Source of the DNA: Janthinobacterium lividum
GTDB taxonomy: Bacteria > Bacteroidota > Bacteroidia > Cytophagales > Hymenobacteraceae
Assembly: GCA_050954845.1 (NCBI GenBank)
Contig: JBPBQK010000039.1
Span: forward strand, 37,783-101,782
Direction of reading: 5' to 3'
DNA: 64,000 nt
In this document: positions 30,614 to 39,748 of the stretch, one piece after another
Numbering within the stretch: the first letter of the stretch is position 1
Layout: the number at the start of each line of letters is the position of its first letter
Translations under genes and position numbers: made by a program
Notes under the pieces: model-generated
Told to the model about the DNA's origin: nothing
What the model saw: the letters and a program-made list of their open reading frames with translations, nothing else
Databases searched by the model: none

Positions 30614-31525
30614 ATGAAAATTCTGCTCACCGGCTCCAATGGTTTGCTCGGCCAAAAGCTCGTCGGCTTGCTGCGCCAGCAGCCCGACGTGGCCCTTGTA
30701 GCCACCGCCCGCGGCCCAAACCGCCTGGCTGGCCTCTACCCCGACCTGTATTTTGTGCCGCTCGACGTGACCGATGCCGCCCAGGTGCGCCAGGTGCTAG
30801 CCCAGGAGCAGCCCACGCACCTCATCCACACCGCCGCTATGACCCAGGTCGATGACTGCGAGCTAAACCAAGCCGCCTGCTGGGCCCAGAATGTAACCGC
30901 CGTGCAGCACCTGGCCGACGCCTGCGCCGACCTCGGCATTCACCTCACCCATCTCAGTACCGACTTCATTTTCAACGGTAAAGAAGGCCCGCTGGCCGAA
31001 GATGCTCAGCCCGACCCCATCAGCCACTACGGCGCGAGCAAGTTGGCTGCTGAGCGCATCGTGCAGGCCACACCCGGCCTGCGCTGGGCTATTGCCCGCA
31101 CCGTGCTGGTGTATGGCACCGTGCACGGCGGCGGACGCAGCAACATCGTGCTGTGGGTACGCGACTCGCTGCGCAAAAGCCAGACTATTAAAGTGGTAAC
31201 CGACCAGTGGCGCACACCCACCCTAGCCGAAGACCTGGCCGAAGGCTGCTGGCTGCTAGCCCGGCACGCGGCCGAAGGCATCTACCACCTCAGTGGGCGC
31301 GAGCTGCTGACCCCTTTCCAGATGGCCGAGCAGGTCGCCGATTTCTTTGGCCTCGATAAGGTGTTGCTTACGCCCGTCGATAGCTCCACCTTTACCCAGC
31401 CCGCCCGCCGCCCGCCGCGCACGGGCTTTCTCATTGCCAAAGCCGAACGCGAGTTGGGCTACCAGCCGCGCACTTTCGCCCAAGGCATTGCACTGCTGGC
31501 GCAGCAAACCGACCCCACCACGTAG
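30614..31525 (+). CDS. RmlD-like extended SDR oxidoreductase
   Basis: GSNGLLG, HTAAMTQVD, STDFIF, YGASK, DQWRTPT. Confidence 0.88.
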   Translation: MKILLTGSNGLLGQKLVGLLRQQPDVALVATARGPNRLAGLYPDLYFVPLDVTDAAQVRQVLAQEQPTHLIHTAAMTQVDDCELNQAACWAQNVTAVQHLADACADLGIHLTHLSTDFIFNGKEGPLAEDAQPDPISHYGASKLAAERIVQATPGLRWAIARTVLVYGTVHGGGRSNIVLWVRDSLRKSQTIKVVTDQWRTPTLAEDLAEGCWLLARHAAEGIYHLSGRELLTPFQMAEQVADFFGLDKVLLTPVDSSTFTQPARRPPRTGFLIAKAERELGYQPRTFAQGIALLAQQTDPTT

Positions 31526-31537
31526 CACAGCCAAAGT

Positions 31538-31570
31538 AAAAAAACCCGTTGGCAATACCAACGGGTTTTT
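31538..31570 (+). terminator. intrinsic terminator
   Basis: aaaaacccgttgg-caata-ccaacgggttttt. Confidence 0.75.
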
Positions 31571-31691
31571 CAGCTATAAACCTTCCGCTTTTAAATAAGT
31601 CACTACTTAATACTGGACACCGAATAAACACTTAAATGGCAAGGCGCGCGACGTAGCCGGCGCTTGCAGGAAACTAAAAGCGCTAGTCTAC

Positions 31692-31898
31692 TTAGAGCTG
31701 CGAGGGCCAGAAGCCTACCAGCAAGCCACCGACCAGCAGGGCGGTGCGCTGGCGCAGAGCTGCCTCGCCCAGGGCGCGGGGTACCAGCCGCCCGTCGGGC
31801 GTCATAAAGTCGCGCTCGGCCGACAAGTAGGAAAAATCCTCGGCTAGCGCCCCAGCAGGCGAGATGGCTTGGTTGAAACAGTAGGTAGTGCTCATGAC
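31692..31898 (-). CDS. small hypothetical protein with C-terminal hydrophobic tail
   Basis: ATG near 31895-31898; GC-rich coding stretch next to AT-rich upstream DNA. Confidence 0.45.
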   Translation of the reverse strand, partial: VMSTTYCFNQAISPAGALAEDFSYLSAERDFMTPDGRLVPRALGEAALRQRTALLVGGLLVGFWPSQL

Positions 31899-32250
31899 AA
31901 ATAGTAGCAGATAAAAGGTAAGATGGCTAGGCAGCCAATAACTCAGTTTCGGATTCTGATACAATTTTAGCGGAGTCACTCAGCCCTCAAAAGGACAAAC
32001 CTGCGTTTTTTACGACATTGTATATTTTTGATATTTATGGGTCTAAAGCCCTAAAAAACCGTGTATAATTGAAAATTATAAACTGAACATTAGAAAAATA
32101 TTTGCTTTATATTATTGATTTTTAATAATTTAACTAAAAGACTGCGATTGAGCTTACCCTGGTTTTTTGTCAGAAAAGTGCATAAATAGGACATTGAAGC
32201 CCCTTCAAAGCAGGCCTTTTTACCTCGGTTTTTCTATAAAAAAGAGAGGA

Positions 32251-33246
32251 TTAGCGCGTTGCAAACGCGCGCGCCAGCCGCTGCAAGGCGAGCAGCGTAA
32301 GCAGCAAGGCCCCGCCCGCGCTGGCCAGCAGCCACCAGGCACCGGGCTCTTGGCGCAGCATACCGAGCAAGCGGCCCCAACTCGAAACATCGGGTGGCCG
32401 CCCAACCCCCAGAAAAGCCAGCGTGCTTTCGAGCCCAATAAGCCCGGCCAGACTGAGTGGCACGGTAGCTTGCAGGGGCCGGCAGGCGTGGGGCAGGGCG
32501 TGGCGCAGCCACACCCTGCCAGTGGACAGGCCCAGCGCGCGCGCCGCCTCCACAAAGGGTAACTCGCGTACTTGCTGCATCTGAGCCCGCACCTGCCGGG
32601 CGGGCTCGGGCCAGGCTACTACTACTAGCAGCACCAGCAGTTGCCCCGTGGCCAGGGGCGGCCCGGCGGCCAGCACAAGCACCAGTACCAGCCGGGGCAC
32701 GGCCCCAAGCAGGGTAATTGCCGTTTGGAAAAGGCTATCGAGCGGCAGCGGCCAAGTGGCGTGGCCCACCCAGCGCACCCGTGGCGCAACCCACCAAGCC
32801 AGCATGGCCGCCCCCAGCAACAAGCCCGCCACCGTGCGGCCACCGGGCAGGGCCACCAGCCACCACCCCACCGCTAGCCCCAGCAGCCACGCGCCCAGCG
32901 GCAGCCGCCAGCCCCGGTCGCCCCAAAAGCCAGCACTACCACCAGCCAGCGCCCCCACCAGCGCCGCCAGCAGGGCCGCCGGCAAACTTAGGATGGCCAC
33001 TTGGCGCGCCCCAAATAGTACCTCCGTCAGGACATCGCAGCCGAGCGGGTCGGTGCCCAGCCAGTGCCGGGGCGCGGCCCCCCAACTTGGTGGCTCGGCC
33101 ACGTGCAGCAGGTCGGGCACGCCGGGGGCGAAGGGCAGCGGTAGCCACGGCGCCAGCAGTCCCACGCCGCTCACTAGCACCAGCCAGCCAATGGCCAGCC
33201 AGGTAAGCCTCGAAAAGGCAACGTATGGAAACCGGCCTAAACGCAT
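32251..33246 (-). CDS. peptide/nickel ABC permease (DppC/OppC type)
   Basis: HWLGTDPLG.D and FVEAARALG (EAA loop). ATG 33246 overlaps the upstream permease stop. Confidence 0.88.
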   Translation of the reverse strand: MRLGRFPYVAFSRLTWLAIGWLVLVSGVGLLAPWLPLPFAPGVPDLLHVAEPPSWGAAPRHWLGTDPLGCDVLTEVLFGARQVAILSLPAALLAALVGALAGGSAGFWGDRGWRLPLGAWLLGLAVGWWLVALPGGRTVAGLLLGAAMLAWWVAPRVRWVGHATWPLPLDSLFQTAITLLGAVPRLVLVLVLAAGPPLATGQLLVLLVVVAWPEPARQVRAQMQQVRELPFVEAARALGLSTGRVWLRHALPHACRPLQATVPLSLAGLIGLESTLAFLGVGRPPDVSSWGRLLGMLRQEPGAWWLLASAGGALLLTLLALQRLARAFATR

Positions 33247-34304
33247 GAGGCAAGGCGAATGCGCGGGTCGACCAACGCTTGCAGGGCATCGGCCAGCGCC
33301 AAGCACAGCAGCCGCACCACCGCCGTGAACAGCACCCCAGCCACTACGACCGGGTAGTCGTGGGCGGCCGCCGACTCGGCTAGCAGGCGGCCCACGCCCG
33401 GGATGGCAAAAACCGTTTCTACCAGCACCGTGCCGGCCAGCAAAGTCGGCAGCAAGCCCGCGAAAGAGGTGAGCAGCGGCAGCAAGGCATTGGGCAGGGC
33501 GTGGCGGCGTAGCAGCGTAGCAGTGGGCACGCCCTTAGCGCGGGCCGTAGTGGCGTAGTCGGCTTGCAGCTCGCGGCGCAGCGCGGCGGCCAGCGGCAAA
33601 GTCAGCTCGGGCAAAACCGCCAGTACCAGCGTTAGCAGCGGCATAAGAAGCTGCAAGGCAAAGGCCCCCGGTGCCAGGTCGGCCGAGCCACTGCCCAGCG
33701 AATAGGCGGGTAACAGATTGAGCGCGTCGGGGTTAGCGAAAACAAAAAGTAGCCCCAGTGCCAAGGCAAATACCGGTATGCTCTGCAAGCTGGTAAGTAG
33801 CACCTGCAAGCCCGCTCGCCACCCCGTGGAGCCAGCTAGTGGGCCGCTCGCCAAGGCCAGCCCCAGCGCTAGTGCCCCCAGCCCGGCTACCACGGCGGCG
33901 GCGCCCGCCAGCGGCAGCGTATAGGCCAGGGCCGCGCGCAGCCGGGGGCCAATAGGCTGGCCATCGCGGTAAGACGCGCCCAACTGGCCGTGCAGCAGCC
34001 CCACTACCCAGTGGTGGTACTGATTATGTGTGCCGTGCCAACGCCAGGTAGCCGAGTCGCGGCTGGTGCGGGTGAGGTAAAAAACTGGCTCCGTAAGCCC
34101 CAAGCGCTGGCGCAGGGCCTGGCGGGCAGCTAGCTGGTCGGCTTGGCCAATGCTGCTGGCGTGCGCCCGCAAGTCATCGCTTTCCCCCAGCATAACTTCT
34201 TCGGCCCCCGCCACCAGTACCCGGCTCAGAATAAATACCAAGGAGGCCGTGGCCCAGGCGGCCAAGCCAGCCCGTCCTATTTGCAGCAGTAGCCAACGCC
34301 TCAT
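33237..34304 (-). CDS. peptide/nickel ABC permease (DppB/OppB type)
   Basis: LGASYRDG, YATTARAKG, RHALPNAL, VETVFAIPGVG, DYPVV. Confidence 0.9.
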   Translation of the reverse strand: MRRWLLLQIGRAGLAAWATASLVFILSRVLVAGAEEVMLGESDDLRAHASSIGQADQLAARQALRQRLGLTEPVFYLTRTSRDSATWRWHGTHNQYHHWVVGLLHGQLGASYRDGQPIGPRLRAALAYTLPLAGAAAVVAGLGALALGLALASGPLAGSTGWRAGLQVLLTSLQSIPVFALALGLLFVFANPDALNLLPAYSLGSGSADLAPGAFALQLLMPLLTLVLAVLPELTLPLAAALRRELQADYATTARAKGVPTATLLRRHALPNALLPLLTSFAGLLPTLLAGTVLVETVFAIPGVGRLLAESAAAHDYPVVVAGVLFTAVVRLLCLALADALQALVDPRIRLASCV

Positions 34305-34316
34305 ATCCCAGCAGGT

Positions 34317-36068
34317 TTAGCGAGCCAGGGCATCTGTTGTGGCGGCCCAGGTAGCAGCGGCGGCATAATAGCCTGGCTTATAGCCCGAGGGGTATAAATT
34401 CTGGAGGCCCCGGGCCGTAGTCAGGCGGTAGGGCAGAAAGAACAGTGGCATCAGTGGCATCTGCTGCTGCATTATCAGCTGGAAGCGCCGGAGCAGCCTG
34501 CGCTTGCGCGCCGGGTTTCCAGTTGCCGCAATAGCGTCGATGAGCTGGTCGGTAGCGCGAGTGCTAAATTTCGTGAAGTTGCTCTCCGGAATGGTGCGCG
34601 AATGCAGCAACGTCGTGAAGTTGAAGGCAAATGGGTTGCCGCTCAGCTTGCGTACATAGATGTCAAAGTCACCCTCGCGGAGGGTAGTAGTCAGGAGCGA
34701 AGGCTCGGTAGGCCGCAGCTCGACCGGGATGCCTAACTTGGTAGCAGCGCTTTTAAACTGAAGCGCAATGGTAGCAAACGTAGGTTCGTCGGTGCGGTAG
34801 CGAACTGTAAGGGACAGTTTCTCAATTGGCTGCGCTTTGGTGGCTGCGCTGCGCACCCAGCCCGTAGCCTGGCGCTGCCAGCCCGCTCGTTGCAGTAGCG
34901 CCAGTGCTTGTGCGGGAGCATAAGCGGGGAGGGGCAGGCTGTCATTATAATACAAGTGGTCGTTCGGGTGCACCAGCCCCACCGTGCGTAGCCCCTGGCC
35001 AAGCTGCGTGGCTTTCAGTAGATTAACTGGGTCAAACAGCAAGGCCAGTGCTTGCCGGGTCAGCGAATCGTGCAGGGCGGGCTGGCGGGTATTGAAGCCC
35101 GCCGTTACCAGCTCGTAAGAAGTAGTAGCGTAAAACGCCAACTCTTGCTGCGCCCCAGTAGCGGTCTGTAGGCGCTGAAACCCACGGGCCGACATCTGCG
35201 GTAGTACATCCAGCTCGTGGCGGCGCAGGGCCAGGGTCGCAGTTGCCTCGTCTGGAATGATGAGAAACTGAATCTGGGGCACCTGGGCTTGCAGCATAAA
35301 GGGCGTGGGCCGCAGCGCATTGGCCCACCAGTGGGGCTTGCGCACAAAGGTCAGGAAATGGTCTATCTCCCAGGTCTTCAGGCGGTAGGCCCCGCAGCCC
35401 GGCAGCCGCTCGGGGTGGTGGCTGGGGTCGGCGTGTTGGTAGCGCTGCACCAAGGCCTGCAGGGCAGTATCACGCTTGGTCAGCAGCGAAAGCTTAGTTA
35501 GCTTGGCCAGCGAGCAGTGGCGTAGCGTGCACTGGGGGTCAAGGGCAGCTTCGGGCAAAATAGGGAACTCGCCGGCCTCGTAGCTGTACTCGGGCGCTTG
35601 CCCCTGGCAAACCAGCGTAAACCGCCGTGGGTTGCCAGCATCCAGCCGGATGGCACGAATGAAGCTGAGCTGCGCCCGCACTTTTTCATTGGGCAGGCCG
35701 GGGCATTGATACAGCTTGAGCGTGAAGGCTACATCGCTGGCCAGCACCGGGCGGCCATTATCCCAGGTAGCAGCCCGGCGCAACTCGTAGCGTAGCTCGG
35801 TAAGCGAATCGCCTACCAAGCGTACGTTAGGCAACGAGTCGGCCAGGGCTGGGGAATAAGTACCCGTCAAAAAATTTACTTGCAGCAAGCTGCAATGCAA
35901 TAAACTCAGGGCATCTATTGCATTTTGGTTGGGCTGTACCAAGGGCGATAGGTTTTCGGGGTCGCGGACCCACCGAACCCGAATGCCGGTATGCTGCTGT
36001 TGCTTAGCTGGTAGCGAGCATGACCCGCTAACAATGGCCAGCAAGAGACCAACCCAAAATTGCTTCAT
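34317..36068 (-). CDS. family-5 (Opp/Dpp/Nik) substrate-binding lipoprotein
   Basis: Lipobox SGSC; 'TWDNGRPVLASDVAFTLK'; 'GCGAYRL..W'; 'VRQALA'-like segment; 583 aa. Confidence 0.9.
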   Translation of the reverse strand: MKQFWVGLLLAIVSGSCSLPAKQQQHTGIRVRWVRDPENLSPLVQPNQNAIDALSLLHCSLLQVNFLTGTYSPALADSLPNVRLVGDSLTELRYELRRAATWDNGRPVLASDVAFTLKLYQCPGLPNEKVRAQLSFIRAIRLDAGNPRRFTLVCQGQAPEYSYEAGEFPILPEAALDPQCTLRHCSLAKLTKLSLLTKRDTALQALVQRYQHADPSHHPERLPGCGAYRLKTWEIDHFLTFVRKPHWWANALRPTPFMLQAQVPQIQFLIIPDEATATLALRRHELDVLPQMSARGFQRLQTATGAQQELAFYATTSYELVTAGFNTRQPALHDSLTRQALALLFDPVNLLKATQLGQGLRTVGLVHPNDHLYYNDSLPLPAYAPAQALALLQRAGWQRQATGWVRSAATKAQPIEKLSLTVRYRTDEPTFATIALQFKSAATKLGIPVELRPTEPSLLTTTLREGDFDIYVRKLSGNPFAFNFTTLLHSRTIPESNFTKFSTRATDQLIDAIAATGNPARKRRLLRRFQLIMQQQMPLMPLFFLPYRLTTARGLQNLYPSGYKPGYYAAAATWAATTDALAR

Positions 36069-36127
36069 TTAACCAGCAGGGTAAAAATCAATGCCAGCAA
36101 GTTAACGAAGTATAAGGATTTACAAGC

Positions 36128-36379
36128 TTAGTCGTGGTCCCAGCCGCTGCCGCCGATGGTCGGGTCCGGGGCTGGCGAGCCAGTTGCGTCGTGGTCCCAG
36201 CCGCTGCCGCCGATGGTGGTAGAAGTGCCGGTTACGTCGTGGTCCCAGCCGCTACCACCGATGGCTTGCGTCGTGGTGGGGCCAGTTACATCATGGTCCC
36301 AGCCACTACCACCAATGTTGGTAGAAGTACCAGTGAGGGTAGCAAACTGCAGTAGGGCAAGTACAAGTAGGTCAAACAT
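36128..36379 (-). CDS. 83-aa secreted precursor with four IGGSGWDHD cores
   Basis: ATG 36379; hydrophobic leader MFDLLVLALLQFATLTG; four exact 9-aa repeats, the last at the C-terminus. Confidence 0.85.
   Translation of the reverse strand: MFDLLVLALLQFATLTGTSTNIGGSGWDHDVTGPTTTQAIGGSGWDHDVTGTSTTIGGSGWDHDATGSPAPDPTIGGSGWDHD
36131..36316 (-). repeat. four in-frame 27-bp coding repeats
   Basis: Units at 36131-36157, 36188-36214, 36236-36262 and 36290-36316; spacers 30, 21 and 27 nt; differences are synonymous only. Confidence 0.95.
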
Positions 36380-36443
36380 GGTAATTGAGGTGAGGGGGTA
36401 GATGATTAACTGATACAAAAGTCCTCACTTACTTAAGCCCAAC

Positions 36444-36472
36444 AAAGGACAATGTTTGTGAAAATAGGACAA
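36444..36472. promoter_or_regulatory. candidate operator: direct repeat A(A/T)AGGACAA with 20-bp period
   Basis: aaaggacaa at 36444 and ataggacaa at 36464, in the divergent intergenic region. Confidence 0.4.
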
Positions 36473-36744
36473 CGATTTTTATTGTATTATTTATAATTTT
36501 TACAAGCAAAAAGCAAGTTTTACTGCTTCTGCTGCGTAAAAATAGAATTTCCCGTGATGATTTTTTGCAAGAAAAAGTGGAAATTGTGACATCTCTTCGA
36601 TAAAAAAGCTCGCTCGTCCACTTTGCAAAGGTTTCAACTAAGCAGCTCGTAAAAAAAGGACAAAGTGGTTATTTTTTTATGTGCTAATTTTAGCACTTAT
36701 TCTAGTCCCAAAACCGCTATTTGGCCTGCTAGGGCGTTTTCTCT

Positions 36745-38253
36745 ATGAAAGAAATTGCAAATTTGGCCCGAATTGTGACATTACGCCGCCTCAAAAATGA
36801 GCCCTTGCTCGATTTGGATACGCGGCAGCCGGGAAAGGAAGCGCAGCTGGCCGCAATCTTAGCAGCCGATGCGCATATTACTGGCCCTCAGGCAGCTAAG
36901 CAAGTTTATGGCAAAAGCTCGGAGGCCAGCCAAACGGCCTTTTTGCGCCTGCGGGCCCGAGTGCAGGAAAAGCTGCTAAACCATCTTTTTTTTCTCGACC
37001 ATACCGATGCGCGCTTGTTTGTAGCGCGTCGCTATGAACTTGAATGTCTGGATTTGCTGCACAAGGTAACAATTTTATACTTAGAAGGCGAATATGCGCT
37101 GAGCGAGCGCCTGCTGCGGCGCTGCTTGCGCCAGGCCGAAAAGGGCGAGTTTACGAAATACGCTGAGCAGGCGTGCCAGCGCTTGAGTACCCTGTATGCC
37201 GAGCAGCGCCAGCAGCACAAATACAACACTTACAGTAAGAAGCTGGCCAAGCTGCGCCAAGTGCTTATTTATGAGCAGGAGGCGGAGCAAATGGCGACCC
37301 AGGTGCGCCTGACGATGACCCGGACGGTGACCATCCGGCGGACGCTGCTGCCCAAGATGCCCGGCTACATTGCCAAGGCCGAGCAGCTGCACCAGAAGGC
37401 GGGTAGCTTCACTACCTACGTATCGCTCTACCGCTTGCGCCTGATACAGGCAGAGTTAACCGGCCATTACGACGAGATTATTCGCTATACCACGGCGGCT
37501 ACGCAGCTGCTGCGCCAGGGCAAGCTCAATGAGCGGCGCTTCGACCAGCGCTTCAACCAGTTTATGAGCATGTATGCGCACTTGCGCAGCCGGCAATACA
37601 AGGCCGGCCTCAAGCTGGCCGAAGATTTTGCGGCCGATTTGCATCCTACTTCCAACAACTGGTTTTACTTCTACGAGCACTATTTGCTGCTGGCCCTGCA
37701 CGCCGGCGAATACGACCACGCCCTGCGCCTGCTGCACGTGGCGCACAAAAACCCGTCGTTTCCGAAGCAGCGGCCCGCCGCCCAAGAGCGCTGGCAACTG
37801 CTGCAAGCCTACGTAGAGTTTGTGCAGCCCGAGGAAACGCTGCCCCAGCGCCGCCGCATTCAGATGGCCACTGCCGCGCTGCTAGTGGTGCCCGAGTTCA
37901 CGCGCGACAAGCGGGGCTACAACGTGGCTATTCTGGTGTTTCAGCTGCTGCACTACCTGCGCCAGCGCGAGCTAGAGCCGGTGCTCACGCGCCTCGAGCG
38001 CCTGCGCAAGTACCAGCAGCGGCACCTACGCGACGCGGCCACCCTGCGCAGCCGCACGCTGCTGCGCCTGCTTATGCTGCTGCCCGAAGCCGAGTTTGAC
38101 CCCGAGGTGCTGGCCAAACGGGGCCAAACCCGCCTGGCGCAGCTAAGCCAGGCCCCTATGGTGGGCGATGCCGACGCCGAGGTCGAAATCATTCCCTACG
38201 AGCGGATTTGGGAGCTGACCCTTAGTATTTTGCGCGCTGGTACTCCACAATAG
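36745..38253 (+). CDS. soluble all-helical protein; putative N-terminal HTH plus TPR-like repeats (candidate peptide-responsive regulator)
   Basis: No signal peptide or TM segment; helix-turn-helix-like 'GPQAAKQVYG...AFLRLRARVQEKLL'; TPR-like units such as 'YLEGEYALSERLLRRCL' and 'LHAGEYDHALRLL'. Confidence 0.75.
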   Translation: MKEIANLARIVTLRRLKNEPLLDLDTRQPGKEAQLAAILAADAHITGPQAAKQVYGKSSEASQTAFLRLRARVQEKLLNHLFFLDHTDARLFVARRYELECLDLLHKVTILYLEGEYALSERLLRRCLRQAEKGEFTKYAEQACQRLSTLYAEQRQQHKYNTYSKKLAKLRQVLIYEQEAEQMATQVRLTMTRTVTIRRTLLPKMPGYIAKAEQLHQKAGSFTTYVSLYRLRLIQAELTGHYDEIIRYTTAATQLLRQGKLNERRFDQRFNQFMSMYAHLRSRQYKAGLKLAEDFAADLHPTSNNWFYFYEHYLLLALHAGEYDHALRLLHVAHKNPSFPKQRPAAQERWQLLQAYVEFVQPEETLPQRRRIQMATAALLVVPEFTRDKRGYNVAILVFQLLHYLRQRELEPVLTRLERLRKYQQRHLRDAATLRSRTLLRLLMLLPEAEFDPEVLAKRGQTRLAQLSQAPMVGDADAEVEIIPYERIWELTLSILRAGTPQ

Positions 38254-38274
38254 TCAGTAGCTTGTAGCTGCTGG

Positions 38275-38874
38275 CTACTGCACCACTACCACCTCCTGGG
38301 TGGCGCAGTGGCTGGCGGCGCAGCTGCCGGGGCCGTAGCCGCGCAAACTTAGGCGCACCTGATAGCGGCCAGCCTTGCGAAAGGTGTGGTCGATGCGGCG
38401 GCCCTGCTGGGTGAGGCCATCGCGAAAGTCCCAGATATAGAGCACGTTCTGGCAAGTGGGCAAGCCCGAGTCCAGGGCGTCGAAGGCTATCGCTTCGCCA
38501 ACGTGGATGGTTTTGGCGGGCAGGCTGAAGTAGATAACGGGCTGCGTAACGAGGTCTACTTCAAAGGTTTTTTCGGCCTTGCGCACCTCGCCGGTGGCGG
38601 GCACCAGCACATCGAGCACTACCTGGTAGCGGGCGCGGCGCTTGTAGCAGTGGCTGATAATGAGTCCGGTGAGAGTAGTGCTGTCGCCCATTTGCCAGCG
38701 GTATACCACGGGGCCCGCGGCCGGGTCCACAGAGCGGCTGGCATCAAAATCTACGCACATCTGGGGTAGGATTGGGGGCCCGCAGTCGGCGGCATCCTGG
38801 GCGTGGGCCGCTTGCGAGGCCAGCCCACCACCCGCCCAAACCGACAAAACCAACAAAGCGCGTAATAAACTCAT
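38275..38874 (-). CDS. secreted PKD-domain protein (two PKD-like repeats)
   Basis: 'FDASRS...YRWQMGD' and 'FDALDS...YIWDFRDG...HTF.KAGRYQVRL'. Confidence 0.85.
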   Translation of the reverse strand: MSLLRALLVLSVWAGGGLASQAAHAQDAADCGPPILPQMCVDFDASRSVDPAAGPVVYRWQMGDSTTLTGLIISHCYKRRARYQVVLDVLVPATGEVRKAEKTFEVDLVTQPVIYFSLPAKTIHVGEAIAFDALDSGLPTCQNVLYIWDFRDGLTQQGRRIDHTFRKAGRYQVRLSLRGYGPGSCAASHCATQEVVVVQ

Positions 38875-38965
38875 ACAAAAACAGGCTAACTAAATAAGCT
38901 GGCGATGGGGCCATAAGTGGCCAATGACCTAAGCCCACCGGCGGGCAAAGTAACGCCCTGCCGCC

Positions 38966-39748
38966 CTACAAGCGGTTGAGCCGCTGCAAAACGTTGCGCA
39001 GGTACGTCTGGCCCACTGGTATATATTTATCCTTGATTAGTAAAGAGTTGTCTTCCAGCGCCTGCACGCAATTGATGTTGGCAATGAAGGAGCGGTGCAC
39101 GCGCACAAACTGCGTGGGCGGAAATTTCTCCTCGATAGCCCGCATGGTGCTGTACACAATGAGCTTGCTTTGGCTGGTGACGATGTGCACGTAATCGCCG
39201 AGGGCCTCGACGTACTGCACCTCGCGAAAATCGACTCGCACCAGCTTGGTATCCATCTTCACAAATGTGAAATCGGGCTCGACGGCCGGGGTTACTAAGC
39301 CCGCAGTATCGCTTTCGGCGGCCCGTTCGGCTGTGATTATATCCAGAACTTTTTGGGCCGCCTGCAAAAAGCGCGGATAGGACAAAGGCTTGAGCAGGTA
39401 ATCGGCCACGGCAAACTCGAAGGCCTGCACTGCATAATTGTCGCTGCTGGTAATAAGCACGACTTGGGGTAGGTCAATTTGCATTCGCAGCAGGTCGATG
39501 CCCGACATCATGGGCATCTCGACATCCAGAAAAAGTACGTCGATAGGCTGGGCGTGAGTACGCAGTAGCTCAGCGGCTTCTAGCGCGTTGGTGAAGGAAC
39601 CGACTGCTTGCAAAAAGGGCGTATTGGCAATGCAGTTCAGAACAATTTGCACCGAAAGCGGGTCGTCGTCAACGACCAGACAACGGAGTGGAGCGGTAGC
39701 AGTAGCGGGCTCAGACGAAGAGGTAGGCATAGCAACAGTTGATTTCAT
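38966..39748 (-). CDS. LytTR-family response regulator
   Basis: VVDDD, FLDVEMP, DYLLKP receiver motifs; FVRVHRSFI LytTR motif. Confidence 0.95.
   Translation of the reverse strand: MKSTVAMPTSSSEPATATAPLRCLVVDDDPLSVQIVLNCIANTPFLQAVGSFTNALEAAELLRTHAQPIDVLFLDVEMPMMSGIDLLRMQIDLPQVVLITSSDNYAVQAFEFAVADYLLKPLSYPRFLQAAQKVLDIITAERAAESDTAGLVTPAVEPDFTFVKMDTKLVRVDFREVQYVEALGDYVHIVTSQSKLIVYSTMRAIEEKFPPTQFVRVHRSFIANINCVQALEDNSLLIKDKYIPVGQTYLRNVLQRLNRL

What the first reader, a model, noticed from the sequence alone, without database searches (positions are those of the whole stretch)
36128..36379. 83-aa precursor with four identical IGGSGWDHD cores under apparent protein-level selection
The protein reads MFDLLVLALLQFATLTGTSTN-IGGSGWDHD-VTGPTTTQA-IGGSGWDHD-VTGTSTT-IGGSGWDHD-ATGSPAPDPT-IGGSGWDHD-stop. 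The four 27-bp units differ only at synonymous positions (att/atc, ggt/ggc, agt/agc, cat/cac, gat/gac). The Thr/Pro-rich spacers vary in sequence and length (9, 7, 10 aa) but stay in frame, and the last core ends exactly at the C-terminus. This is the pattern expected of a polyprotein that releases several copies of one bioactive peptide. Possible roles: a signalling pheromone, a multi-core RiPP whose maturase is encoded elsewhere (none is adjacent), or an Asp/His/Trp metal-binding peptide recovered by the Nik/Opp-family transporter.
Basis: partly seen in the sequence, partly recalled or inferred. Interest (0 to 1): 0.88.

Follow-up and report, generated by a model that had tools for sequence, protein, structure and literature searches.

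The report
Four-copy peptide precursor beside its receptor
A small Hymenobacter gene encodes four identical copies of a 9-residue peptide and is gained or lost together with a helical-repeat (TPR) protein and a peptide-uptake transporter, so it looks like a peptide-pheromone circuit of a kind so far described only in Gram-positive bacteria.

Summary
Window 36128-36379 (-) encodes an 83-aa protein with a 17-21-residue hydrophobic leader and four IGGSGWDHD cores. The cores differ only at synonymous sites (pS 0.67, pN 0).

The gene is the first of a module that is present or absent as one unit in Hymenobacter. The module is: peptide, family-5 binding lipoprotein and two Opp-type permeases, with a divergent, cytoplasmic 502-aa TPR protein.

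The TPR protein belongs to a large unnamed family (about 1,900 clusters at 50% identity) found in several Bacteroidota lineages. There too it sits beside small genes with a short leader and a C-terminal core. The core sequence differs between lineages and is present in 1 to about 20 tandem copies.

His is not conserved in the core and no maturase is linked, so the metal-binding and RiPP readings are weak.

Best reading (about 0.5): an RRNPP-like circuit in which the peptide is exported, cut into 8-9-mers, re-imported and sensed by the TPR protein. Export, cleavage, binding and output are all inferred. An AfsS-like intracellular partner of the TPR protein is the main rival.

Earlier notes of this scan describe similar cassettes on other Bacteroidota DNA.

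The parts
36128..36379 (-). Peptide precursor gene: 83 aa, made of a leader, four cores and three spacers
   Evidence: Homologues appear.
36317..36379 (-). Leader MFDLLVLALLQFATLTG plus the TSTN linker. It is hydrophobic, has Asp at position 3, has no basic N-region and no canonical signal-peptidase site
   Evidence: The pattern M[FL][DE]L[LIF]x[LI]AL[LF]Q[FLIV]A[TS] is conserved across Hymenobacter. Among close relatives the leader has pN 0.07 and pS 0.54. That it is an export signal is inferred.
36290..36316 (-). Core 1, IGGSGWDHD
36236..36262 (-). Core 2, IGGSGWDHD
36188..36214 (-). Core 3, IGGSGWDHD
36131..36157 (-). Core 4, IGGSGWDHD, followed directly by the stop codon
36444..36472 (.). 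Direct repeat AAAGGACAA-N11-ATAGGACAA with a 20-bp period, about 65-90 bp upstream of the peptide start codon. Candidate activator site
   Evidence: It is present at the same position in 21 of 21 loci of the window's clade. The strict pair pattern occurs only 6 times in the 6.57-Mb genome. Which protein binds it is not known.
36411..36423 (-). Conserved TTTG-TAnCA element, about 35-40 nt before the ATG. Probable Bacteroidota -7 promoter box of the peptide operon
   Evidence: The intergenic regions were compared by eye. This also explains the apparent in-frame 'HQLIT' conservation upstream of the ATG. The promoter assignment is inferred.
34317..36068 (-). Family-5 (Opp/Dpp/Nik type) solute-binding lipoprotein, 59 bp downstream of the peptide gene
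   Evidence: Pfam SBP_bac_5, E 1.8e-44. No NCBIfam equivalog cut-off is reached. The N-terminus MKQFWVGLLLAIVSGSC has a lipobox-like Cys. The gap contains no terminator-like fold. The orthologue is present in 15 of 15 X502-plus and 0 of 10 X502-minus Hymenobacter genomes.
33237..34304 (-). OppB/NikB-type permease
   Evidence: BPD_transp_1, E 6e-25. The best NCBIfam hits are Opp2B/Opp4B, below cut-off.
32251..33306 (-). OppC/NikC-type permease. The true start is probably the internal ATG at about 33246
   Evidence: BPD_transp_1, E 8.6e-20
36745..38253 (+). 502-aa cytoplasmic TPR-like protein ('X502'), transcribed divergently from the peptide gene. Candidate peptide receptor
   Evidence: It has no Pfam, NCBIfam or PDB sequence hit. 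The AlphaFold model has pLDDT 93 and is all-helical. Foldseek returns only TPR superhelices. TPR Pfam models hit other family members. It has no TM segment and no signal peptide. The family has 1,930 clusters.

Best explanation
The gene encodes the pro-peptide of a peptide-signalling module that works like the RRNPP(A) systems of Bacillota.

Proposed steps:
1. The 83-aa precursor is made from its own activator-dependent promoter, as the first gene of an operon that also encodes a binding lipoprotein and two Opp-type permeases.
2. The short hydrophobic leader takes the precursor into or across the inner membrane.
3. Proteases cut it into four identical 8-9-mers, (I)GGSGWDHD, cleaving after the final Asp and before Ile/Gly.
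4. The peptide accumulates outside the cell or in the periplasm.
5. The dedicated binding protein captures it. The two permeases import it, powered by an ATPase encoded elsewhere in the genome.
6. In the cytoplasm the peptide binds the 502-aa TPR protein encoded divergently.
7. The TPR protein then changes transcription, probably including that of the peptide/importer operon.

The tandem copies multiply the signal yield per transcript.

Shown here: the anatomy of the gene, purifying selection on each core, co-inheritance of the five genes, the pairing of peptide and TPR protein across the phylum, and the TPR fold.

Inferred: export, the cleavage sites, binding to the SBP and to the TPR protein, and the output step. 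The output could be direct DNA binding or a Rap-like action on another regulator.
For: 1. Selection on the peptide.
- The cores differ only synonymously (pS 0.67, pN 0).
- In close relatives an amino-acid change appears in all four copies at once (IGSTGWDHD in L091, IGSSGWDHD in L092), while synonymous differences between copies persist.

2. Functional unit.
- X502 is found in 141 of 151 Hymenobacter genomes sampled.
- A leader-type peptide ORF lies just upstream of X502 in 19 of 20 further species and in nearly all loci.
- The SBP orthologue is adjacent in 15 of 15 X502-plus genomes and missing in 10 of 10 X502-minus genomes.
- In five X502-minus genomes the flanking genes RmlD and PKD/LytTR/HK abut each other. 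The peptide, X502, SBP and two permeases therefore form one indel unit.

3. The functional element is the single core.
- Sister species carry 1, 2, 3, 4, 6, 9, 15 or at least 17 copies in the same context.
- Single-copy forms have the leader-linker-C-terminal-core layout typical of pheromone pro-peptides.

4. The pairing extends beyond the genus.
- Distant X502 homologues in Chitinophagales, Saprospiraceae and Ignavibacteria-like MAGs sit beside small ORFs with a short leader and unrelated cores, single or tandem.
- Examples: IVTDPNG x4, IDPAGN x7, PYLIDRGENN x3, IVVEDIITR x10 and x8, and single IDRTED, IITDDFGG and IVDDSGGF.

5. Receptor-like partner.
- X502 is a soluble TPR solenoid without any enzyme domain.

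6. Co-divergence.
- Core distance tracks SBP distance (partial Mantel r 0.47, p about 2e-4) and X502 distance (r 0.27, p about 0.002), with the neighbouring LytTR protein as control. The reverse control gives r -0.09.

7. Mobile copies.
- On plasmid-like contigs with Rep3, ParB and Tn3 genes, the peptide travels with X502 and, on one of the two contigs, an SBP, but without permeases.

8. Regulation and transcription.
- A direct repeat upstream of the peptide promoter is conserved in 21 of 21 loci.
- There is no terminator between the peptide gene and the SBP gene.

9. Precedent.
- Tandemly duplicated pheromones, 1-4 copies per pro-peptide, are known in RRNPPA systems (PMC11343458).
Against: - There is no direct evidence of transcription, export, cleavage or binding.
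- The leader is atypical for Sec. It is acidic, has no basic N-region and no AxA site. In Neolewinella the N-terminus is amphipathic rather than hydrophobic.
- No exporter or protease is linked to the module.
- The cell is diderm, so release past the outer membrane needs an unknown route.
- X502 shows no detectable homology to RRNPP receptors. The top 50 Foldseek hits are generic TPR proteins with TM 0.2-0.4.
- An N-terminal HTH is not established. The isolated N-terminal model has pLDDT 60 and its best fold match has E 1.5.
- Outside Hymenobacter the transporter is not adjacent to X502.
- Precursors with 15 to 17 or more copies exceed anything known for bacterial pheromones and would also suit a multivalent intracellular ligand.
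- The operon has no ATPase gene of its own.
- Partial Mantel tests on 19 related loci are known to overstate significance.
Confidence: 0.5

Rival explanations
1. Intracellular partner, as with AfsS. The repeat protein is not secreted. Its repeated units bind the TPR protein inside the cell, possibly at the membrane through the hydrophobic N-terminus, and modulate it multivalently. This is how the small repeat protein AfsS binds the TPR-containing regulator AfsR encoded next to it in Streptomyces.
For: - AfsS has 2-5 repeats, lies beside afsR, and binds AfsR more strongly the more repeats it keeps (PMC10832544).
- Here the leader is not a canonical signal peptide and no exporter or protease is linked.
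- Copy numbers of up to about 20 suit multivalency.
- The Neolewinella N-termini are not hydrophobic.
Against: - It does not explain why a periplasmic binding lipoprotein and two importer permeases are co-transcribed with the peptide gene and co-inherited with it and X502.
- It does not explain why the core co-diverges most strongly with the SBP.
- Single-core forms with the core at the extreme C-terminus are common.
- Short tails after the last core (YTR, IA, ITGR) suggest trimming.
Confidence: 0.2
2. Secreted repeat protein with a function of its own, for example a Gly/Trp/Asp-rich surface, matrix or ion-binding polymer. In this reading the TPR protein only regulates it, and the Opp system recycles its breakdown products.
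For: - Some species encode proteins of 220-290 aa that are almost entirely GGSGWGND-type units.
- The window core fits the first six positions of the RTX Ca-binding motif GGxGxD (direct reading of the sequence; the RTX consensus is from my own knowledge).
Against: - Sister species with the identical gene context carry a single core at the end of a 50-aa protein.
- Unit spacing is irregular (periods of 10 and 13 residues, or T/S/P spacers of 7-10), not the contiguous nonamers of a beta-roll.
- Position 6 is Gly in most core types.
- Cores in other lineages are unrelated in sequence.
Confidence: 0.1
3. Multi-core RiPP. The cores are post-translationally modified, for example at Trp, by enzymes encoded elsewhere, and are released as a natural product.
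For: - The leader-plus-repeated-core layout resembles multi-core RiPP precursors.
- Trp is invariant in the Hymenobacter cores.
Against: - No modifying enzyme, protease or exporter is encoded in the indel unit or is conserved near any of about 70 loci.
- The only universal partner is a TPR protein without a catalytic domain.
- Cores of other lineages lack Trp.
- No NCBIfam precursor family matches.
Confidence: 0.07
4. Metallophore-like peptide. The Asp/His/Trp core binds Ni, Cu, Zn or Fe outside the cell, and the Nik/Opp-family transporter imports the complex.
For: - The best NCBIfam hit of the SBP is nickel NikA, although far below cut-off (70 bits against 393), and the permeases score best against nickel/Opp2 models.
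- Family-5 binding proteins are known to import peptide-derived or opine metallophores (own knowledge: CntA, MbnE).
Against: - His is present in only some core types. DHD and GHD have it; END, DND, DVD, GND, GGD, GSD, GTD and VGD do not.
- Core chemistry differs completely in other lineages that have the same TPR partner.
- No metal-regulator site or metalloenzyme is linked.
- A TPR protein is not a typical metal sensor.
Confidence: 0.05

Closest known systems
RRNPP(A) peptide quorum sensing of Bacillota (Rap-Phr, NprR-NprX, PlcR-PapR, AimR-AimP), including pro-peptides with tandemly duplicated pheromones (PMC11343458; PMC10075063)
   Same: - A small pro-peptide gene lies directly beside a cytoplasmic TPR receptor gene.
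- The active unit is at the C-terminus of the pro-peptide.
- There are 1-4 (here 1 to about 20) identical or near-identical copies.
- An Opp-type importer is involved.
- Peptide specificity diversifies quickly between close relatives.
- Copies occur on plasmid-like elements.
   Different: - The phylum is different (diderm Bacteroidota).
- The receptor family is not detectably homologous and is not in Pfam.
- The leader is not a Sec signal.
- In Hymenobacter the importer is dedicated and co-transcribed with the peptide, rather than being the housekeeping Opp.
- The output domain is unknown.
Rgg/SHP and PrgX/PrgQ/PrgZ systems of streptococci and enterococci (own knowledge)
   Same: - Very short hydrophobic pro-peptides without a classical signal peptide are transcribed divergently from the receptor gene. 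The 20-23-aa forms in Saprospiraceae resemble these.
- pCF10 carries its own OppA-like binding protein (PrgZ) that uses the host permease. The Hymenobacter plasmid-like contig likewise carries X502, the peptide and an SBP but no permeases.
   Different: - No PptAB or Eep counterpart was identified.
- The leaders here are acidic rather than basic at the N-terminus.
- Tandem cores are not a feature of SHP or PrgQ.
AfsR-AfsS of Streptomyces (PMC10832544)
   Same: A small protein with 2-5 short repeats is encoded next to a TPR-containing regulator, and the repeats mediate binding to it.
   Different: - AfsS has no hydrophobic leader and no linked importer, and it acts inside the cell.
- AfsR has SARP and NB-ARC domains, which X502 lacks.
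Eukaryotic multi-copy pro-hormones such as yeast alpha-factor (own knowledge)
   Same: Four tandem copies of one peptide are separated by spacers and released by proteolysis, which multiplies yield.
   Different: Spacer processing there uses Kex2/Ste13 in the secretory pathway and the receptor is on the cell surface. There is no evolutionary relation.

Membership tests
RRNPP(A) quorum-sensing systems | Intracellular receptor whose peptide-binding part is a TPR-type helical repeat domain | tested here: met
   The AlphaFold model has pLDDT 93 and is all-helical. Foldseek hits are TPR superhelices only. TPR_12 and TPR_14 hit 16 and 13 of 76 family members. There is no TM segment or signal peptide.
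RRNPP(A) quorum-sensing systems | Receptor homologous to Rap/Rgg/NprR/PlcR/PrgX/AimR | tested here: not met
   No sequence hit to any PDB chain. No RRNPP receptor appears among the top 50 Foldseek hits in the PDB or the viral library.
RRNPP(A) quorum-sensing systems | Small pro-peptide gene directly adjacent to the receptor gene | tested here: met
   The window, about 45 Hymenobacter loci and 12 of 18 loci from other lineages.
RRNPP(A) quorum-sensing systems | Pro-peptide is exported and cut to a 5-10-residue pheromone | not testable with these tools
   There is only indirect evidence: the hydrophobic leader, the regular Asp|hydrophobic boundary after each core in the window's clade, and the short tails after the last core.
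RRNPP(A) quorum-sensing systems | Re-import by an oligopeptide permease | tested here: inconclusive
   An Opp-type SBP and two permeases are co-transcribed with the peptide gene and co-inherited with it and X502. All 26 X502-plus genomes in the phylum sample have a family-5 SBP, against 230 of 375 others. Transport itself was not tested.
RRNPP(A) quorum-sensing systems | N-terminal HTH or other effector domain on the receptor | tested here: inconclusive
   Residues 1-90 form 4 helices. The isolated model has pLDDT 60, and the best fold matches are HTH domains at E 1.5-10, which is not significant. The profile finds nothing in the PDB.
Multi-core RiPP precursors (e.g. cyanobactin-type) | Linked maturase, protease or exporter genes | tested here: not met
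   Pfam scans of neighbours in the window and in related loci. Clustering of all neighbours in 23 loci finds only X502 as a universal partner. The indel unit holds no enzyme.
Multi-core RiPP precursors (e.g. cyanobactin-type) | Match to a curated precursor family | tested here: not met
   No Pfam or NCBIfam hit at E up to 0.01.
RTX calcium-binding repeats | Contiguous nonapeptides GGxGxDxUx forming a beta-roll | tested here: not met
   The window core reads GGSGWD, but the units are separated by spacers of 7-10 residues. In relatives position 6 is mostly Gly and the periods are 10 or 13. There is no Pfam hit.
Nickel/metallophore ABC importers (NikA, CntA type) | SBP reaches the curated equivalog score | tested here: not met
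   nickel_nikA scores 70 bits against a cut-off of 393. opine CntA scores 29.8 against 800.

The most novel reading that the evidence does not exclude
This is one locus of a phylum-wide, undescribed peptide-signalling system of Bacteroidota. It has a new family of cytoplasmic TPR receptors (about 1,900 clusters at 50% identity). Each receptor is paired with a short-leader pro-peptide whose core diversifies into pherotypes and is amplified to as many as about 20 tandem copies. In Hymenobacter the system has its own dedicated Opp-type importer. If true, it would be the first import-dependent peptide quorum sensing shown in a diderm phylum.
Probability: 0.45. Interest if true: 0.9.

Novelty: new variant of a known kind. 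Interest (0 to 1): 0.8.

Why it matters
Peptide pheromones that are re-imported and read by cytoplasmic TPR receptors are treated as a hallmark of Bacillota (PMC10075063, PMC11343458). A 2026 review names only N-acyl-cyclolysines as a Bacteroidota signal (PMC13419125).

A five-gene module that is near-universal in Hymenobacter, with relatives of the receptor-peptide pair in Chitinophagales, Saprospiraceae and Ignavibacteria-like lineages, would extend this logic to Gram-negative bacteria.

It would also give a very simple test system. The ligand can be predicted from the sequence, the importer is dedicated, and natural alleles with 1 to about 20 copies allow a direct test of what pheromone amplification is for.

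In addition, it gives a function-level lead for a large protein family that has no Pfam model.

Tried and rejected
- **Pfam and NCBIfam on the peptide and on X502:** no family.
- **PDB sequence searches** with X502, with its family profile and with the N-terminal profile: nothing significant; only weak TPR hits at E 0.005.
- **Foldseek of the full model** against the PDB and viral libraries: generic TPR proteins only.
- **N-terminal domain folded alone:** low confidence, and no significant fold match. The HTH question stays open.
- **The search for related loci with the family alignment:** It was repeated with the single protein.
- **Rfam scan of 31000-39000:** nothing real.
- **Terminator scan and fold of the peptide-SBP gap:** no terminator.
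- **Regulon search with the AAGGACA direct repeat:** no regulon. There are 6 strict pairs genome-wide, and the single 9-mer occurs at the expected frequency, 26 times.
- **SBP adjacency outside Hymenobacter:** absent in 18 loci. In one Ignavibacteria-like genus an SBP lies near an X502 paralogue, but with another gene in between and no peptide, so it was not counted.
- **LytTR/hybrid-kinase operon as the receptor (agr-like reading):** a LytTR gene neighbours X502 in three lineages. However, in X502-minus Hymenobacter the kinase/LytTR/PKD genes remain while the peptide module is gone, so they are not part of the unit.
- **Literature searches** for Hymenobacter or Bacteroidota peptide quorum sensing: nothing on this family.
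Full report
**1. Observation**

The ORF at window 36128..36379 on the minus strand translates to MFDLLVLALLQFATLTGTSTN-IGGSGWDHD-VTGPTTTQA-IGGSGWDHD-VTGTSTT-IGGSGWDHD-ATGSPAPDPT-IGGSGWDHD-stop. The four 27-nt core units lie at 36290-36316, 36236-36262, 36188-36214 and 36131-36157. They differ at six positions, all synonymous T/C changes at third codon positions. A Nei-Gojobori count over the six unit pairs gives pS 0.67 and pN 0. Tandem Repeats Finder reports the array. The two + strand ORFs over the same DNA are mirror images of the repeat.

**2. The gene is real and conserved**

A protein search found 11 homologues from metagenomes and genomes. All have the same leader and 2-4 identical cores. 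Genome and locus searches added many more from named Hymenobacter species.

The leader M[FL][DE]L[LIF]x[LI]AL[LF]Q[FLIV]A[TS] is conserved. The spacers are not. The core keeps a Gly-rich stretch and an invariant Trp, while the two to four residues after the Trp differ between species: DHD, END, DND, DVD, GND, GGD, GHD, GSD, GTD, VGD, GDGH, SDGN and others. They are identical within each protein.

In the closest relatives, L091 has IGSTGWDHD in all four copies and L092 has IGSSGWDHD in all four, while synonymous differences between copies remain. This pattern means concerted change plus purifying selection for identical products.

Copy number ranges from 1 to at least 17. L059, L118, L120 and L122 carry a single GGGGWGGD at the C-terminus of a 50-aa protein. 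L098, L100 and L117 carry 15 to 17 or more copies. One of these arrays is interrupted by a run of N, so its count is a lower bound.

The opposite is seen.

**3. Context in the window**

- The peptide gene is followed after 59 bp by a family-5 solute-binding lipoprotein (34317..36068) and two Opp/Nik-type permeases (33237..34304 and 32251..33306). The gap holds no terminator-like structure.
- There is no ATPase gene in the operon or in the window. The genome's only match to the oligo_HPY domain typical of OppD/F-type ATPases is a fused double ABC protein of 614 aa on another contig. It stands alone between two lspA paralogues and an ATP-grasp gene.
- A second family-5 SBP (orphan) and a second OppB-like permease exist elsewhere in the genome.
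- Across a 365-bp AT-rich gap lies a divergent 502-aa ORF (36745..38253, 'X502') with no Pfam, NCBIfam or PDB sequence match.

**4. What X502 is**

A search of 1.84 billion cluster representatives found 1,930 relatives at E up to 1e-3. Those listed are mostly about 500 aa and match along the full length. Sources name them 'hypothetical' or, rarely, 'tetratricopeptide repeat protein'.

AlphaFold on a 76-sequence alignment gives a confident all-helical model (pLDDT 93, pTM 0.90). Foldseek returns only TPR superhelices such as CTR9, SKI3, TTC7B, SPINDLY and LGN, with TM 0.2-0.4. TPR Pfam models hit 13-16 of the 76 members. The protein has no hydrophobic segment (maximum Kyte-Doolittle 19-residue mean 0.92).

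It is therefore a soluble, presumably cytoplasmic, TPR-type protein without any recognisable enzyme domain.

Whether the first 90 residues form an HTH is not settled. Folded alone they give pLDDT 60. The best fold matches are DNA-binding HTH domains, but at E 1.5-10.

**5. The functional unit**

- X502 is found in 141 of 151 Hymenobacter genomes sampled. Two of these, G560 and G542, are unpublished. Without them the count is 139 of 149, and no claim depends on them.
- In 15 of 15 X502-plus genomes tested, the orthologue of the window's SBP (43-57% identity) is present. In 14 it lies within about 2.5 kb of X502. In the fifteenth (G001) both genes sit at contig ends.
- In 10 of 10 X502-minus genomes there is no match at all to this SBP.
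- In five X502-minus genomes the flanking genes are directly adjacent: the PPIase and RmlD genes lie next to the PKD, LytTR and hybrid-kinase genes.

So X502, the peptide gene, the SBP and the two permeases (with a small conserved ORF at 31692..31979) are present or absent as one block of about 6.7 kb. The kinase/LytTR operon is not part of that block. The ten genomes without the block may be one clade, so this may reflect a single event. It still defines the unit.

On plasmid-like contigs carrying Rep3, ParB and Tn3 genes (L024, L025), the peptide-X502 pair recurs. L025 holds a second X502 and an SBP but no permeases.

**6. Beyond the genus**

X502 homologues occur in 26 of 401 Bacteroidota genomes sampled, in 12 of 179 genera. 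Source names include Chitinophagales, Saprospiraceae (Neolewinella, Portibacter) and Ignavibacteria/'Chlorobi'-labelled MAGs.

Next to them lie small ORFs with a short N-terminal leader and either tandem or single C-terminal cores of unrelated sequence:
- IVTDPNG x4
- IDPAGN x7
- PYLIDRGENN x3
- IIDRGE x3
- IVVEDIITR x10 and x8, in two tandem genes
- single ...IDRTED, ...IIDRGEEN, ...IITDDFGG, ...IVDDSGGF and ...IVEDDGGL

I could call such an ORF in 12 of 18 non-Hymenobacter loci. The single-core calls rest on recurrence of the same C-terminus in related genomes.

Clustering all neighbours of 23 loci shows that X502 has no other universal partner. The SBP/permease genes are not adjacent outside Hymenobacter. 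However, all 26 X502-plus genomes carry at least one family-5 SBP, against 230 of 375 others. These genomes are not independent, so this comparison is only suggestive.

**7. Co-divergence**

The test used 19 Hymenobacter loci with the neighbouring LytTR protein as a proxy for phylogeny:
- Core edit distance correlates with SBP distance (partial Mantel r 0.47, p about 2e-4).
- It correlates with X502 distance (r 0.27, p about 0.002).
- LytTR distance given X502 shows nothing (r -0.09).

Partial Mantel tests on related sequences overstate significance, so I treat this as suggestive. It suggests that the periplasmic binding protein tracks the peptide.

**8. Regulation**

In 21 of 21 loci of the window's clade, a direct repeat AAGGA(C/A)A-N13-(G/T/A)GACA with a 20-bp period sits at a fixed distance upstream of a conserved TTTG-TAnCA element. 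That element is about 35-40 nt before the peptide start codon. Further GTGACATC and AAGGACAA copies lie nearer X502.

The strict pair occurs only six times in the genome, so the site looks local to this module. Which protein binds it is unknown.

**9. Interpretation**

The anatomy is that of an RRNPP-type circuit: a C-terminal core behind a leader, a cytoplasmic TPR partner encoded divergently, an Opp-type importer, rapid diversification of the core between close relatives, copies on mobile elements, and a dedicated promoter with an activator-like site. Bacillota pro-peptides with 1-4 tandem pheromone copies are documented (PMC11343458).

I therefore rate 'exported, cut, re-imported and sensed by X502' as the best explanation, at about 0.5.

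The steps not shown are export, cleavage, binding and output:
- The leader is acidic and lacks a signal-peptidase site, so it is more like SHP or PrgQ than like Phr.
- In the window's clade every core ends in Asp and is followed by V/A/Y/F/I. Elsewhere in the genus cores end in GH, GY or GN.
- The output could be direct DNA binding or a Rap-like action on another regulator.

The main rival is an AfsS-like intracellular repeat partner of the TPR protein (PMC10832544). It explains high copy numbers and the odd leader. It does not explain the co-inherited importer.

The RiPP and metallophore readings have little support. No enzyme is linked, and His is present in only a few core types.

**10. Membership and novelty**

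X502 is not detectably homologous to RRNPP receptors, and the phylum is different. The module therefore works like an RRNPP system but cannot be filed as a member.

Searches of the held literature found no description of this family or of peptide quorum sensing in Bacteroidota.

Earlier notes of this scan describe similar peptide-plus-TPR cassettes in Flavobacteriales and Saprospiraceae. I did not verify that they are the same family. A sequence look-up with a Saprospiraceae member found none.

Noticed in passing
L079:6711-9973 (G000 contig C111): The genome's only oligo_HPY (OppD/F-type) ATPase match is a fused double ABC protein of 614 aa with no permease or SBP beside it. It lies directly after two tandem signal-peptidase-II (lspA) paralogues. 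It is the likely motor of the window's ATPase-less importer.
   Followed up: partly
L099 / L023 (Hymenobacter sp. BRD67 chromosome): In this genome the hybrid kinase, SBP, second permease and X502 all appear in several frame-shifted pieces, and the peptide gene is truncated after one core. The module is either decaying or the assembly carries indel errors.
   Followed up: no
L024:38-10471 and L025:797-10783: Extra peptide-X502 pairs lie on plasmid-like contigs next to a Tn3 transposase, ParB, a Rep3 initiator and an HTH-S24 repressor. L025 has two X502 paralogues and an SBP but no permeases.
   Followed up: partly
window 38186-38217 (X502 residues 481-490): The most conserved stretch of the whole X502 family is a C-terminal motif E-x-E-I-I-P-Y-E-x-L-W-E. 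W489 is the only invariant residue, and the motif follows a low-confidence loop. Its role is unknown.
   Followed up: no
L064:10890-11249, L065:7105-7461, L070:7690-8052, L072:7010-7366: In the Ignavibacteria-like lineage a conserved protein of about 120 aa and unknown function lies close to X502 in four of the loci examined (within about 1.3 kb). It could be a lineage-specific third component.
   Followed up: no
L098:1761-2636: The array of 17 or more copies is interrupted by a run of N, and in G001 the X502 and SBP genes sit at contig ends. Long peptide arrays evidently break short-read assemblies, so copy numbers are lower bounds.
   Followed up: no
window 31692-31979 (-): A 95-aa ORF just downstream of the permeases is conserved in relatives (50-59% identity) and is missing together with the module in X502-minus genomes. 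It has no family match.
   Followed up: partly
L062:6361-7095 and L069:7082-7867: A LytTR response-regulator gene lies next to X502 in two distant lineages as well as in Hymenobacter. In Hymenobacter, however, the LytTR/kinase genes persist when the peptide module is absent.
   Followed up: partly
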